A DNA stretch of 64,000 nucleotides from Eledone cirrhosa (Eukaryota). Positions 1-53,092 of the stretch are shown piece by piece. Made by a program: the position numbers and the translations under genes. The stretch's first letter is position 1. Every line of letters starts with the position of its first letter. The stretch is taken from contig OZ024741.1 of the NCBI GenBank assembly GCA_964016885.1, positions 337,838,001-337,902,000 of the forward strand. Reading direction: 5' to 3'. The notes below the pieces were generated by a model, which was not told the DNA's origin, ran no database searches, and saw nothing but the letters and a program-made list of their open reading frames with translations.

Positions 1-273
1 AAGAAATCCCCAGTCACTGAAGAGGTCACAGAGTGTGTGACGAAAGAACTATGACTATATATATATAAACAACTATCTGGTTGTGGAACCAACCAACCAA
101 CCAGAAATTTATAAATTTGTAAATTTATAAATATTTAATAAATTAAATTGAAGTGAAAGCAACTGGTGCGTGTGTTTCTTATTGGCAACATGACCCTCCC
201 AAAGTATAACAATATCGGTTTCAACACACGATTTCAGATAAAGAATCTTGCTAAACAAATTCAGAAACGAAAT
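1..273 (+). mobile_element. PLE pseudo-LTR end with ORF-start tail
   Basis: Near-identical to 14572-14778. Tail encodes [20 protein letters not shown], resembling the ORF start MTLAKYNNICFDTRFHIKNL at 6112 (-). Carries a hammerhead motif and ends in (TA)n. Confidence 0.7.
12..56 (+). ncRNA. minimal type I hammerhead ribozyme motif
   Basis: agtca-CTGAAGA-g-gtcaca(gagtg)tgtgac-GAAA-gaac-TA-tgact; stems I and II pair, stem III is minimal. Confidence 0.6.
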
Positions 274-406
274 ATATATATATATATGTGTATATATATA
301 TATATATATATATATATATATATACTTATATACTTATATACTTATATATATATATACTTATATATATATATATATATATATATATATATATATATATATA
401 TATATG

Positions 407-1068
407 TATAACGAAGGAAATGTGGTAAGGAACCCTGTGGAACATAATTCTGAGTCCAGAATTAGCCGTCGAAACGGCTTCAGCTCAGCCGTCGGGGTCC
501 TACTCGTTCCCTTTTTGTCGATTCTATTAAATGATGAATAGCTCCTGTTTATTTTAACATGTCTATTGAGCACTCTTATTCGATATGTGATTTTCCACAT
601 TCCCGAATATTTTTCGCGGATATAGAGGTTATCTCCCTTGCTGGATTCCATGTGCGTTTTCAGCTAGGGTTGGCTTTTTTATTCGTTTGGACAAAGCTCG
701 TTGATAAAGTATTTCCTGTCCGCCGCTCTCTAGAAGTCTTATATATTTTTATGTGGGCTGATAGTGGGCGATTTAAGGATTTACAGAAACCCAAGAAGCT
801 AGATTTACCATCTTTCTAGTGGGTCCGGGTAAGCTTTTTACATTCATATGATTTATTGATTTATTGATATTTTATCTGAGTGACCCGAATCTTCCTGATC
901 GTAATTTTTCGGTCGTATGGTTGATTTTAGACATAATCTATGTGTGTTGGTATTTTAACGATAGTTATAGCTCTGATTTATCTGAATTATTGAGCCCTCT
1001 GCCACTCATGTCGAATTTTGTTTATCGTGAACTCGTGCGCCGATTTTTCGATACTCGATTATTCTACT
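407..1068. mobile_element. unclassified repeat fragment between (TA)n tracts
   Basis: 407-445 and 453-510 match the foldback at 42313-42508; hairpin junction aattctg-agtc-cagaatt at 446-463. Confidence 0.45.
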
Positions 1069-1631
1069 ATATATGTATATATACATATATATATATATAT
1101 ATATATATATATATATATATATATATATATATATATATATATATATACATACATATATATATATATATATATATATATATATATATATATATACATACAT
1201 ATATATATATATATATATATATATATATATATATATATATATATACATACATATATATATATATATATATATATATATATATATATATATATATATATAT
1301 ATATATATATATATATATATATATATATATACATATATATACATATATATATATATATATATACATATATATATATATACATATATATATATATATATAT
1401 ACATACATATATATATATACATACATATATATATATATATATATATATACACATATATATATATACATACATATATATATATACATACATATATATATAT
1501 ACATATATATATATATATATATATATATATATATACATATATATATATACATATATATACATATATATATATATATATATATATATATATATATATATAT
1601 ATATATATATATATATATATATATATATATA
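1069..1631. repeat. (TA)n microsatellite
   Basis: Direct reading; one of many such tracts. Confidence 0.99.
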
Positions 1632-48799: not shown

Positions 48800-49858
48800 A
48801 GCCAACACCAGAGTGAAAGACAGCAACGCCGCGAGTACTGGGCAACCTCTCTAATGGTTTTTGAGGCAAGCCAGCACACTCGCAGCGTTACCCCGGGTGA
48901 TGGCGAGGCTGATGCGCTGAAACAGCCAAGCACCCTATCGAGATTCGCCAGTCACCTCAATTAGGCGAGCCGCCAGTGGGGAAAGGAACCTCGCAGTCAG
49001 CGGCTCGACTCCCCCAAACGTCTCGAAAGCCACAGGCTGAAAAATGTAGCTGGCCGACAGAGCAGAGTATTTGAGGGTCTTATTCCGCTCGGCTGCAGAA
49101 GCTGTGGCTCTCGTCCTAACCGCAGCATCCAGGATGTGGGAAAGAGCAAAGGAGTCACTAACAGTGACGTCCCAGACAAAGGACCTGCCTCTCGACCAGA
49201 GGCACAGGGTAAGACCGTCATGTCTTTTGCCGTCACTTCAACCCAAATGGTTCCAAGACCGAGGGGATATTCCCCCGGGCCAAAGCTCTCTTCAGAATGA
49301 GGTTTAGCTCCGTGTGACGCGCGAAGCGGCCGGCATTCAGGCAGCAAGAAAGACCGTGGAGGCCTGTAGAGTCGAGGAGTTTGCCGCATCGGCACCTCAA
49401 ACCCATGCAGACGTCGGCTCCCACTCTGAGAGCGATGGAGACACGAAGTTCGTCCAGGCTGAGTAGGCCACCAACGTTGGTCACGGGTAGGGCATCGACC
49501 CAGTCGCCTGAGTATTTGGCGCTGGCAGATAGTAAGCGGCACCTTGCAAACTGATCTGATACGACGAAGGGGGAGTCGAAGGTGGCCCTCGAACTTATGC
49601 TGTCCCAGGCTCTCTGACTTCGACTGCCCTCCACCTTCTCAGGAAGAGACAAGCCCATCCCACTCCACCGCTGGAGAGCTTCACCCAACTCCCTGTTGGA
49701 ACTAGTCCATGTTGGAGAGGAGAGGGTGCTGCTCACCAGGGTGGAGGAAAGGAAGCAGGGAGAGAGAGGGCGAACACTTACGGAGACCAAGACCCCCATC
49801 CTGATCGCGGAACTCCGGAGAAAGTCTAACATTGACCAGACACTCGAGTCTCTCGAAG
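48800..49858 (-). mobile_element. CRE-like non-LTR retrotransposon 3' fragment
   Basis: SGDWVDALP, CRCG...HGLSC, RHTELN, then RHDG...WDVTV...FETFG restriction-like endonuclease motifs after a frameshift. The left end is approximate. Confidence 0.72.
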
Positions 49859-50319
49859 ATATATATATATATATATATATATATATATATATATACATTT
49901 GTATTTATATATACATGGTTATATATATTAATTTGTTTGCAAAATTATATACATACAGATGTATATGTATGTATATCAAATATTAAGAAAGTTATGAGGC
50001 AAGTAGTGTGTGTGTATATGTATAAAACATCACAAGTACAGTTTTATACTTTTTCATGAATTTGTTTACACATAGCTTTGTCTTTTTATAGATCACAAAT
50101 GATTTTATCATATCGAAATAAACGATGTACATGAAATTACGGGAAATTACATTATAGCAAATGCGTTCGTATATAAATACATACACATATACGTACATAT
50201 ACACACATACGCATACATACATATATAAATCAACAGCCGTATGAATAATTGGGTACCAAGTATACACAAGTTTACATACATTAATACGACTGAGAGACAA
50301 CAGAAGTGACATGTGATGT

Positions 50320-53092
50320 CTGAAAGTAAAAGTAAAAGGGGAAGTAAAATAAATATAAATATTATATAATTGTTAAAATATATCGTTAATGAAAATCAAA
50401 AAGAAGGGGGGGGGGTCAACTAGTGGATGTAAAGTAAAAATAAATAATTTGTAAAACTAATTAAGATGTCTATAAAGAAGGTAAGTTAAGGAAAGTGAAG
50501 AACAAGACTTTATGGAGGATAAGCGTCTGAAAGTGAGTTAAGTTTGTGTGAGCTGGAAAGCAAATGTGATTTTATGTGTGGGCAACTGGTGAAAATTTCT
50601 GTTTTAGCATTTAGGCAGGTTTTTGGTGATTTAAGGTTCTGTAAAATCCAATATTTTTCATTTATGCAGAGGGCGCATCTTCTTGTTCCTCTTGCGTACT
50701 CTTTAGATTGGTTCAAAATTGACCAATCTAATTTATACTGGATACCTTGGTCCTTCAAATCCCATATTCTGCTAGCCAGAGCTGTTGTGAATCTTTTTCA
50801 GGATGTCGGAAAGATGCGACATGTGAATAATAACGCGTTTTGAATTTGCCTTGCGTCATACCCACATAACGTTCACTGGTGGCTGGCTGGTTGTTGCTGG
50901 TGGTTGTCACTTTGGCCTCATATACAATGGCTTTGGTGTTGAATTTACCTTGTAATGGGCATTCACTTTTAACTCTACAAGAACAATTTTGATATTCTCT
51001 GGGTGTTTTCTTATTAATGATATAAGATTTAATAGAGGGACCGCAGGAGTAGCTGATTTTGACACAGTTTCTATTGAAAATCTTAGAGTATCTATGTATT
51101 CTGGGGAAATGTTTATCTAAGAGTTCTGGGAATTTTCTGCCTACATAAGTTTTAACTGCTAAAGAGTAGGGGTGTGTGAACCAGATTATTTTTCTTTTCC
51201 TATTATTATGTTTAATGGAGTTAGTATTGTTGGGTATGTACTTAATAGGTTCATTGAAGCCACTATTTTGAAGGGCTTTATTATAGTAGGGGGATGCCTT
51301 ATTAAAAATAGCTTCTGAGGAAGATAGGGTAGAGATCCTACGGCTAATATTTGGGATGAGATTTTTAAATACTATAGGAGGATGGCAAGAGCATTTATTT
51401 ATGTATTTAAAATTTTCATAATGTTTATGGTACGGTTTATAGGAAGCAGTAGGCAGATCTAGGTTTATATCTAGAAAATTAACATTAGAAAGGTTTGTGT
51501 CAATGGTAATTTTAAGATTAAAACTAGCGAAGGATTTTATTAAGTCTTTCCTGAACCTGTCTAAGTTATAGCCTATAGTGGTATGGGAAAGTATTAGACC
51601 ATCATCACGATATAGCCCAATGGTATGGTTAGGGAATTTCTCTTTAAGTGTGTGGAGGAGGAATAGGCCGACTAAATCACACACGTCAGCACTATCAAAA
51701 GAACCCATTGCGACATTAAAGGGGTTCTCTGGGTTAGATTTTTTTACCCAAGTTTCATTATTAGCAAACAGTAAAGTATTTCTAGCATGCAAAATGACAT
51801 TCTCTTCAATATCAGAAATATTAATAAACTTTCTAGCAAAATGTCATGCTTTCGTTAAAAGAGGGAGAGTAATAGACGGGTAGAAGTCTACAATGTCAAA
51901 TTGGGTGAATCTAGAATTATTTTTATCTTTAATATTTTTAAACCAATGTACTACAGAAGAGCTATTTATCCATTGGAGTAATTCTGACTTCTTATATATT
52001 TGTTTGTGTTATTTAATATCTGTTTGCTATCAAGGCCGATTTCTGTCTTAGCAGGGTTGATTAACCTACAACTGGGACGATTATTAAAGTCTGATTTATG
52101 ATCTTTAATAGTGATATAGGCATTACGTTTTGCTAGTTTTTCTGTTCTATTGTCTATTTTTAAAAAGCTAGCTAATTCTTTGGCTTCATTATTAATAGTA
52201 TTATAGGTGTTAATATTAGCTATTTGGTATTTAGAGGTGATGCTATCTGTTAAGAGTTGGTCATGTAAGTTATTATTAACTTCGTATAAATTTTTTGTTT
52301 TTTTCGGAGAAAAGGAACTTATTTTTAGAAGATTTATATTCAGAAATAATCGTTAGAGAGTTTAGATTGCAAAATATTATAGTACTTACGGAATTTGATT
52401 TGGTTAATTAAATTAACTAAGTCTAGTTCAAAAGCGTGTGTATTTATGAGACTTGATATCAAAATGTTCTGTAGAGTCCGTGATAAAGTGTCCATCGAAA
52501 ATCAAAGCTTTCCATCTCATTCTTTTTACAACTTTTTCTACTTTGTCGATCAACATTTTAGTGTAGGAAGTGTTAGAAGGTGTTGGTATGTTCTTGATGG
52601 AGTAATCCAAATTATATCGATCCATGTTAGGTATTGGTTAAAATTCCTTTTAACTGAAGAGTGCTCGACTTTAAAGGCCTGGAAGGTGCCAATCTCATAT
52701 AAATGTAGAATATGCTACAATCGTTCCCTTGGGAGCTGTATAAGTGTTGAAGTTTCCGTGGAAAAAGTAAAAGGAATGAAGAGTGCTCTATGTAAGTTAC
52801 AGAGCTAAATATTTAATGTATAATAAACAATACAGTATAATTACCTCATTACTCGAGGTTTCCAGAACAGGACGAACACAAGAGACGTCCGCTATTTTCA
52901 AATATCTCACTATGTTATATTGCTTCATCTGACGAACGAATGCGGACGTCATTTGTGTTCATCCTGTTCGGGAAACCTTGGGTAATGAGGTAATTATACT
53001 GTATTGTTTATTATACATTAAATATTTAGCTCTGTAACTTACATAGATCACTCTTCATTCCTTTTACTTTTTCCACGGAAACTTCAACACTT
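50320..53092 (-). mobile_element. decayed near full-length Nematis-like PLE with inverted pseudo-LTR
   Basis: YSIKNIP...KRMRWKA (52625), FDIVDFYPSI, GLYRDDG and IVYEAKV...YVGMT; inverted arms about 52740-52892 and 52943-53092. Confidence 0.88.
52923..52990 (+). ncRNA. type I hammerhead motif
   Basis: cttcat-CTGACGA-a-cgaa...ttcg-g-GAAA-ccttggg-TA-atgagg. Confidence 0.65.

What the first reader, a model, noticed from the sequence alone, without database searches (positions are those of the whole stretch)
1..53092. About 11 hammerhead ribozyme families in 53 kb, nearly one per (TA)n-flanked insert
Seen: type I hammerhead topology at about 28 sites, e.g. 12, 1771, 2152, 11573, 16024, 23533, 24145, 30474, 32433, 36917, 38029, 43212 and 52923. 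Many have a palindromic stem III (ccgg, tgcgca, ctgatcag, cagctg, cgcg, catatg). Known: PLE pseudo-LTRs carry minimal hammerheads thought to act as dimers through such palindromes. Inference: many short non-coding islands between TA tracts here are ribozyme-tagged PLE ends or PLE parasites.
Basis: partly seen in the sequence, partly recalled or inferred. Interest (0 to 1): 0.72.

Follow-up and report, generated by a model that had tools for sequence, protein, structure and literature searches.

The report
Penelope hammerhead ends crowding TA repeats
The many self-cutting-RNA (hammerhead) motifs in this stretch of animal DNA are real and mark the tail ends of Penelope-type jumping genes and of short non-coding repeats that likely hitch-hike on them: a known system, here estimated at roughly one motif per 10,000 bases of the genome, with cutting untested and two abundant families carrying changes predicted to cripple the ribozyme.

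Summary
Observation confirmed. All 13 example coordinates sit on type I hammerhead motifs. I count 32 complete motifs in 13 sequence families (25 with a consensus core), from about 16 insertions. A descriptor gives 22 hits against 0.45 in shuffles. 19 of 29 islands carry a motif, so "nearly one per insert" is somewhat high.

Eleven families are tied to Penelope-like (PLE) RT/GIY-YIG ORFs, six inside the window and five through other genomic copies. Two (310 and 485 nt) are ORF-free dispersed tandem arrays like non-LTR retrozymes. Copies end in (TA)n at two fixed distances 3' of the ribozyme, the PLE "tail" signature.

U3-A8, U4C, the extra nucleotide after A9, palindromic helix III and the PLE link are all published. 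Less ordinary: about 105 motifs/Mb genome-wide (about 3×10^5, extrapolated from 600 kb), and two young abundant families with predicted-crippled ribozymes (A13C, 6,137 exact copies; no helix I). No cleavage, RNA or circle was shown. This scan already noted the same system, and a similar density, on other DNA of this genome.

The parts
12..56 (+). F1 hammerhead, core at 17, extra G after A9, 2-bp helix III; 3' pLTR of a PLE, long end at about 268
14582..14626 (+). F1 second copy (core 14587), short end at about 14775 into TA
1771..1808 (-). F2 hammerhead, U3-A8 core (1804), helix III ACCGGU; isolated 200-nt PLE 3' end
1949..7103 (-). Frameshifted PLE (RT with DKG, CX4CxxC linker, C-terminal GIY-YIG) with partial-tandem pLTRs 1949-2956 and 6091-7103
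2152..2193 (-). F3 hammerhead in the 3' pLTR (core 2189); weak helix I
6296..6337 (-). F3 copy in the 5' pLTR, core broken at positions 8-9
7932..11768 (+). PLE insertion: RT 8668-10329 (PF00078), GIY-YIG 10316-10720 (PF01541), 3' pLTR 11263-11768 and inverted arm 7932-8429
8086..8124 (-). F4 hammerhead (U3-A8, A13C), inverted arm
11572..11610 (+). F4 hammerhead (U3-A8, A13C), 3' pLTR
17503..17933 (.). F4 fold-back insertion with two A13C motifs (cores 17655 minus, 17743 plus)
15805..16225 (.). F5 fold-back insertion, two motifs (15890 minus, 16031 plus), helix III AUGCGCAU
35039..35445 (.). F5 second fold-back insertion (35220 minus, 35357 plus)
21650..23868 (+). 5'-truncated Hydra-type PLE (CxCX5C linker, GIY-YIG) ending in F6 hammerhead 23539-23644 (U4C, 81-nt helix II arm)
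23955..24892 (-). F7 ORF-free 485-nt tandem (1.9 units), hammerheads at cores 24220 and 24705, helix III ACUGAUCAGU
25617..30566 (.). Hydra-type PLE fragment with 1.9-kb inverted arms; F8 hammerheads (U4C) at 25819-25865 minus and 30474-30520 plus
32433..32470 (-). F9 canonical-looking type I hammerhead (RF00163, 31.7 bits); 3' end of the pLTR of a Hydra-type PLE
39379..39416 (-). F9 copy carried by the local 6.9-kb duplication
35890..37080 (+). Hydra-type PLE 3' end (GIY-YIG remnant) with F10 motif 36918-37034; helix I missing
37356..38238 (.). F11 fold-back insertion: intact U4C motif 38029-38075 plus, broken (C3.A8) motif 37389-37435 minus
45095..45141 (-). Duplicated broken F11 motif
42748..44937 (.). 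F12 ORF-free 310-nt array: six plus units (cores 43218 to 44768) and one inverted arm (core 42933); helix III ACGCGU
49905..53092 (.). Decayed Hydra-type PLE on minus with inverted pLTR 52751-53083; complete F13 motif 52924-52989 plus, half motif on the minus arm
456..505 (+). 3' half of a further hammerhead family (F16: U3-A8, long helix III); more halves at 42400-42500; complete elsewhere
14183..14219 (-). Broken copy (G12 changed) of a further family (F15), intact elsewhere
16816..17294 (+). Piece of a dispersed 557-nt tandem element with PLE-type ends; hammerhead doubtful

Best explanation
The motifs are type I hammerheads in the terminal repeats (pLTRs) of at least eleven Penelope-like retrotransposon families and in two ORF-free tandem repeat families, all likely written into (TA)n by PLE reverse transcriptase-endonuclease proteins. 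Shown: motif topology, ORF linkage, polarity and two fixed 3' ends. Inferred steps: (1) the GIY-YIG domain cuts (TA)n; (2) reverse transcription starts inside the RNA at one of two fixed sites 40-240 nt downstream of the ribozyme, so almost every copy, however 5'-truncated, keeps a hammerhead next to a TA tract; (3) use of both sites gives fold-back copies with one long and one short arm; (4) new copies keep landing in TA tracts, so families pile up where TA is dense; (5) the 310- and 485-nt units are non-autonomous passengers, probably copied from multimeric or circular RNA; (6) short palindromic helix III cannot fold alone, so cleavage would need two motifs in a tandem transcript, and it is probably weak or dispensable for insertion.
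For: Polarity: 62 of 68 hits in 600 kb of unrelated DNA have (TA)6 within 350 nt on the 3' side, 27 of 68 on the 5' side, 18% for random unmasked positions. Two ends per family, as short/long distance from the cleavage site with copy counts: F1 160-170/220 (32/19), F2 70-90/140-150 (19/36), F4 120-130/150-170 (25/27), F5 40-50/130-140 (29/33), F7 90/190 (14/15), F9 50-60/150-160 (5/29), F11 30-50/170-180 (8/20), F12 130-140/160-170 (10/11). ORF links: same-strand endonuclease upstream in at least 21 of 30 F1 loci, 4 of 30 F5, 6 of 29 other F4 loci, 2 of 30 F2, 6 of 30 F11; F9 in a 4,760-nt-period pLTR-ORF-pLTR element with DKT and CxCX5C; F1 next to a 736-aa RT-EN frame. Covariation in sequence-collected sets: F1/F3 4 of 13 pairs change on both sides, 0/500 shuffles reach the score; F8/F11 96.7% paired, 2 pairs, 2/500; F7 variants 24153 T>C and 24158 A>G have near-equal depth in all 4 runs and keep the palindrome. 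Palindromic helix III in 38 of 68 hits vs 13 of 137 shuffle hits, though not required by the descriptor. No window helix III folds alone; self-duplexes of the 7 perfect palindromes give -7 to -13.6 kcal/mol. Hit count tracks TA content (Spearman 0.49, p 7e-5, 60 stretches). Literature: internal RT start at two sites, AT-rich target, cleavage not needed in vitro (PMC11167929, passages).
Against: No cleavage, transcript or circle was observed. The covariation sets are related sequences, so shuffle counts are not probabilities, and F1/F3 rests on one split between two families. Only 5 of 68 sampled hits have a same-strand PLE protein match within 2 kb upstream, so genome-wide the PLE link is inferred from end structure for most copies. 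No autonomous partner was found for F7 or F12. F1/F3 helix III is not self-complementary (+1.4 kcal/mol) and F6 and F9 only weakly so, so the palindrome-dimer idea does not cover all families. Clades were assigned from motifs, with no tree. Only one of nine Xenopus retrozyme dimers cleaved in the 2026 preprint.
Confidence: 0.88

Rival explanations
1. The motifs are chance matches to a relaxed descriptor in AT-rich repeats.
For: Helix I is only 1-4 bp in several families; no site reaches the Rfam gathering score; the descriptor is permissive.
Against: 22 vs 0.45 hits in the window and 68 vs 4.8 in 600 kb; unrequired palindromes, 3' polarity and compensatory changes; among six block orders the type I order gives 31 hits vs 2.0 in shuffles, and the non-circular orders (2-4 hits) stay at shuffle level.
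Confidence: 0.02
2. The 310- and 485-nt arrays are satellites grown by unequal crossing-over from dead PLE ends, not RNA-mobilised retrozymes.
For: Units within an array are 98-100% identical; one array has at least 26 units; the 2026 preprint offers local amplification as a route; no RNA evidence was obtained.
Against: Arrays are dispersed on many contigs, TA-flanked, two-armed and end at two fixed unit positions. Circular folds are 4.6-5.4 SD more stable than shuffles. Local expansion after insertion probably adds to the longest arrays.
Confidence: 0.15
3. The hammerheads are efficient, essential cutters that release monomer RNA circles for every family, and transposition depends on this.
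For: 25 of 32 sites keep a full core; cores stay fixed while helices diverge between sister families; coral, mussel and axolotl retrozymes form circles (PMC7229834, passages and section 13).
Against: F4 reached 6,137 exact copies with A13C; F10 lacks helix I in 15 of 15 loci at 97-98% identity; inserts extend past an uncut site; PAc core mutants still insert in vitro (PMC11167929).
Confidence: 0.2
4. The short fold-back islands are MITE-like DNA transposons that target TA.
For: Inverted arms and TA flanks.
Against: Arms are unequal, inner junctions vary, and the same sequences continue into PLE ORFs at other loci.
Confidence: 0.03

Closest known systems
Minimal hammerheads in pLTRs of metazoan PLEs (Cervera & de la Pena 2014, PMC4209133; parts 1-2 of 4 read, one supplement searched, one not searchable)
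   Same: Type I motifs in pLTRs; many families per genome; mostly single motifs from truncated copies; opposite-strand pairs 100-700 bp apart; U3-A8 variant; extra nucleotide after A9; palindromic helix III; dimer model
   Different: Here most families have a longer palindromic helix III (3-5 bp a side) and some have 50-90-nt helix II arms; counts there are thousands per genome (2,000-9,000), here an estimated 3×10^5 by a different descriptor; A13C not seen in the parts read
Hydra, Neptune and Nematis clades of EN+ PLEs (Craig et al. 2021, PMC8557442; passages, section 11, supplement rows for Hydra-1_Obim and Naiad_Obim)
   Same: C-terminal GIY-YIG; Hydra marks DKT and CxCX5C; (TA)n targets; canonical hammerheads; inverted 5'-truncated copy; one-sided tail
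   Different: Tails here are about 30-160 nt against 30-40 bp; the F9 element has a 1.7-kb pLTR and 4.76-kb period whereas Hydra elements are described as generally under 3 kb; no tree was built here
Metazoan non-LTR retrozymes (Cervera & de la Pena 2020, PMC7229834, passages and section 13; Li, Clavereau & Pollet 2026, bioRxiv 10.64898/2026.07.22.740005, parts 1-3 of 5)
   Same: ORF-free tandem units with one type I hammerhead each, GC under 45%, self-paired circular fold, proposed PLE origin
   Different: RNA and circles untested here; F7 (485 nt) is above the 150-450 bp range of 2020 but inside the 51-972 bp range of 2026; arrays here are two-armed with two fixed ends in (TA)n
PAc Poseidon element of Anolis (Frangieh et al. 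2024, PMC11167929; passages)
   Same: ORF begins at or just after the hammerhead; two RT start sites downstream of it define the tail; AT-rich target; cleavage dispensable in vitro
   Different: Different clade; biochemistry done there, only genomic footprints here

Membership tests
Type I hammerhead ribozyme | Core C3 U4 G5 A6 N7 G8 A9, G12 A13 A14, A15.1-U16.1, H17 (or known variants U3-A8, U4C) | tested here: met
   25 of 32 sites; 7 deviate (A13C x4, C3.A8 x2, broken x1); variants known from PMC4209133 and PMC3088659
Type I hammerhead ribozyme | Three helices around the core, open at helix I | tested here: met
   12 of 13 families, F3 with a weak helix I; not met for F10
Type I hammerhead ribozyme | Compensatory changes in helices | tested here: met
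   related sequences, so modest weight
Type I hammerhead ribozyme | Rfam RF00163 gathering score | tested here: not met
   best 31.7 bits against 34
Type I hammerhead ribozyme | Site-specific self-cleavage after H17, monomer or dimer | not testable with these tools
   needs in vitro assay or end-mapped RNA reads
EN+ Penelope-like element | RT plus GIY-YIG endonuclease in one ORF | tested here: met
   PF00078 and PF01541 at 8668-10720; homologues carry both domains; 736-aa frame in L224; window copies are frameshifted or truncated
EN+ Penelope-like element | pLTR partial tandems, inverted 5'-truncated copy, one-sided tail | tested here: met
EN+ Penelope-like element | RT phylogeny with PLE clades | not tested
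   no reference set at hand; motifs only
Hydra clade | DKT, CxCX5C linker, (TA)n target, canonical hammerhead | tested here: met
   L211 (F9) has DKT and CxCX5C; CxCX5C in the F6, F8, F10, F13 ORFs; definition
Neptune/Nematis clades | DKG and CX2-5CxxC linker before C-terminal EN | tested here: inconclusive
   present in the F3 and F4 elements but does not separate the two clades
Non-LTR retrozyme (F7, F12) | ORF-free tandem units, each with a type I hammerhead, dispersed | tested here: met
   longest ATG ORF 34 and 30 aa; arrays at many loci
Non-LTR retrozyme (F7, F12) | Expressed as linear and circular unit-length RNA | not testable with these tools
   needs RNA data or northern blot
Non-LTR retrozyme (557-nt element at 16816) | Hammerhead in each unit | tested here: inconclusive
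   core-like words present, helix II does not fold, no descriptor or Rfam ribozyme hit
Non-circularly permuted (SGC/CSG/GCS) hammerheads | Block order other than CGS, GSC, SCG with all three helices | tested here: not met
   window: 1 SGC, 2 CSG (one duplicated site) and 7 GCS (one repeated antisense match in F12); 600-kb sample at shuffle level; descriptor may miss non-standard scaffolds

The most novel reading that the evidence does not exclude
This genome is the most hammerhead-dense animal genome in the papers read here (about 100 per Mb, about 300,000 in all, some 10-20 times the axolotl density), and it holds a natural experiment: PLE families that spread to thousands of copies after losing a core nucleotide (A13C) or helix I, showing that the hammerhead fold rides next to the RT start sites as a passenger or binding scaffold and that cutting is not what moves PLEs.
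Probability: 0.4. Interest if true: 0.55.

Novelty: new member of a known kind. Interest (0 to 1): 0.32.

Why it matters
The class is known, so the window itself adds examples, not a new system. Two things could matter. First, scale: an estimated 2-4.5×10^5 motifs would make hammerheads a sizeable genome component that Rfam thresholds miss. Second, the function of PLE hammerheads is an open question (PMC8557442 calls it unclear), and this genome offers matched sister families with intact (F2) and altered (F4, A13C) cores, and fixed RT start sites, which make the question directly testable.

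Tried and rejected
Rfam scan at E<=10 was swamped by TA-repeat microRNA matches; only 150 of 399 rows were shown. The repeat finder was uninformative for the same reason; masked self-BLAST replaced it. Expression: no RNA holder listed for F7; the four runs laid are contigs of unknown kind from one study and may be the assembly's source, so they served only to read variants. The 557-nt element: no Rfam ribozyme, no descriptor hit in any block order. Permuted hammerheads, a lead from earlier scan notes, were not above shuffle level; the antisense GCS match in F12 was rejected as one repeated chance match. 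Autonomous partners of F7 and F12: BLAST against the loci fetched found only related ORF-free sequences (67-85% identity; F12 shares its 3'-end region at about 77% with repeats that carry a different hammerhead). Pfam missed most PLE ORFs (12 PLE frames given, RT or GIY-YIG found in 2). Lunse et al. on dimeric PLE hammerheads is not held, so A13C may be described there; a search for 'hammerhead' with 'A13C' found 0 papers. Searches for host-group hammerhead counts listed none by title or abstract. Part was cut, so F7 flanks were seen for 18 of 30 loci. Cervera 2014 supplement file 1, Craig supplement S2 and the preprint's tables were not seen and may hold counts or variants that bear on the novelty.

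Full report
Setting. The window is G000:C2:337,838,001-337,902,000 of a 3.0-Gb genome. About 20% of it is dinucleotide repeat. Named homologues of its PLE protein are from molluscs, including Octopus; a cephalopod host is my inference.

1. Observation. All 13 example coordinates carry a type I hammerhead layout. A strict descriptor finds 12 sites (shuffle mean 0.017, 60 shuffles), a relaxed one 18 (0.17), and the union of two relaxed ones 22 (0.45, 40 shuffles). Adding copies by BLAST gives 32 complete motifs in 13 families; 25 have a consensus or known-variant core. They come from about 16 insertions: seven sites are one array, many are the two arms of a fold-back, and F9 and one F11 copy are repeated by a local duplication. 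19 of 29 islands carry a complete motif. Only F9 appears as Rfam RF00163, below the gathering score.

Structure support beyond the descriptor. Helix III is a perfect palindrome in 38 of 68 hits from other parts of the genome, against 13 of 137 shuffle hits. Sister families whose endonucleases are related (F1/F3, F8/F11, F2/F4) keep the core and change the helices: F1/F3 show 4 of 13 pairs changed on both sides, F8/F11 2 of 15 with 96.7% of cells paired. Read contigs of F7 hold two changes of near-equal depth that turn one 10-nt palindrome into another. These are related sequences, so the shuffle counts are not probabilities.

2. What the islands are. Six families adjoin PLE ORFs in the window. 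Five look non-coding here but run into PLE ORFs elsewhere: a same-strand endonuclease ends at a fixed place upstream in at least 21 of 30 F1 loci, and lies upstream in 4 of 30 F5, 2 of 30 F2 and 6 of 30 F11 loci; F9 lies in the 1.7-kb pLTR of a full element at L211 whose reading frame opens just after the motif. By the motifs of Craig et al., the F6, F8, F9, F10 and F13 elements are Hydra-type, F5 and F11 match these endonucleases, and F1-F4 are Neptune/Nematis-type; no tree was built. F12 (310 nt) and F7 (485 nt) have no ORF over 34 aa. F12 forms TA-flanked, two-armed arrays; none of 11 regions fetched has an adjoining PLE ORF, and one region is array from end to end. F7 forms similar arrays on many contigs.

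Polarity and ends. In 60 evenly spaced 10-kb stretches from contigs C1-C6, 62 of 68 hits have (TA)6 within 350 nt downstream, 27 upstream, against 18% for random positions. In eight families with enough copies the 3' ends fall into two classes 30-130 nt apart; fold-backs usually pair one of each.

Density. The sample gives 68 hits in 27 of 60 stretches against 4.8 in shuffles: 105 per Mb (bootstrap 65-150), or about 3×10^5 (2-4.5×10^5) if extrapolated; the strict descriptor alone gives 27 hits, 45 per Mb. The descriptor misses long helix III and A13C forms, so it undercounts; the sample omits small contigs. The window is 3.3 times denser than the sample and has 3.6 times the TA content, and count follows TA content across stretches (rho 0.49). 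The window is therefore a TA-rich spot of a genome-wide state. For scale: axolotl 126,247 motifs in 28.21 Gb, 4.5 per Mb; coral over 6,000; Xenopus about 9,000. Descriptors differ, so the ratios are rough.

Crippled families. F4 carries C at position 13: 59 of 59 fetched copies and 98 of the first 100 of 6,137 exact genome matches, control 0. Its sister F2 has the consensus A. F10 has 1 bp of helix I in all 15 loci, from 1,318 candidates, the best 40 being 97-100% identical. That these changes cripple cleavage is predicted from the core consensus (PMC3088659, section 8 and passages; some core variants keep low activity), not tested.

3. Mechanism. Most likely (0.88) the PLE protein nicks (TA)n and starts reverse transcription inside its RNA at one of two sites just downstream of the hammerhead, as shown in vitro for PAc. 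That geometry, not selection on each copy, explains why nearly every PLE-derived island has a hammerhead beside a TA tract. F7 and F12 likely use the same machinery as non-autonomous passengers. No window helix III folds alone, while the seven perfect palindromes pair well with a second copy, which fits the published dimer model; F1/F3, F6 and F9 fit it poorly. Against: no RNA or cleavage data; only 5 of 68 sampled hits have a PLE protein match within 2 kb upstream; no partner was found for F7 or F12. Rivals: arrays as satellites (0.15), essential efficient cleavage in all families (0.2), chance (0.02), MITEs (0.03).

4. Known systems. Cervera & de la Pena 2014 describe the pLTR motifs, U3-A8, the extra nucleotide, palindromes, dimers, truncated single copies and opposite-strand pairs. 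U4C and a U.U pair at 10.1-11.1 are known. Craig et al. 2021 describe Hydra elements with hammerheads in (TA)n, including Hydra-1_Obim. Retrozymes and their PLE origin are covered. Membership is met for EN+ PLE pLTR hammerheads on sequence and architecture; cleavage and circles are untested.

5. Novelty. New members of a known kind. The residual interest is the load and the altered-core families. Earlier notes of this scan on other windows of the same genome reach the same reading, a similar density, the two-end rule and a changed core letter in an abundant family. I looked them up; they are not independent support.

6. Verdict. Observation confirmed, interpretation supported, interest 0.32.

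Noticed in passing
window 456-505 and 42400-42500; complete in L070, L047, L215, L330, L314: Very common further hammerhead family (U3-A8, long helix III with a palindromic loop). Most copies retrieved break off or invert at nearly the same point inside the helix II loop; the query was that 3' half, so the sample is biased.
   Followed up: partly
window 16816-17294; L324, L332, L334: Dispersed 557-nt tandem element (1,452 candidates) with PLE-type two ends and a stable circular fold (z -5.1) but no convincing hammerhead.
   Followed up: partly
window 34108-34734 and 40801-41673 (minus): Intronless caspase-domain ORF (PF00656, E 6e-49) in a 6.9-kb local duplication; the first copy is frameshifted.
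   Followed up: no
window 43307-43383 plus next unit; L039, L040, L257, L330: The hairpin region around the F12 3' ends is about 77% identical to repeats that carry a different hammerhead, suggesting a shared end module with exchanged ribozymes.
   Followed up: partly
window 19009-21449 (minus): RTE-like LINE fragment with a PHD-like finger, ending in (ATC)n beside the TA tract; a 200-N gap follows at 21449-21648.
   Followed up: no
window 55977-64000: Two related LINE copies (79% identity) with an exonuclease-endonuclease-phosphatase domain; GC-richer region with no hammerhead hit.
   Followed up: no
window 14183-14219 (minus): Broken copy of another hammerhead family back-to-back with the F1 copy in one island.
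   Followed up: partly
window 46568-46792 and 47024-47241: 225-nt direct repeat (88%) without a hammerhead, in an island that also holds a transposase-like frame at 47762-48211 (no Pfam hit; likeness from recall).
   Followed up: no
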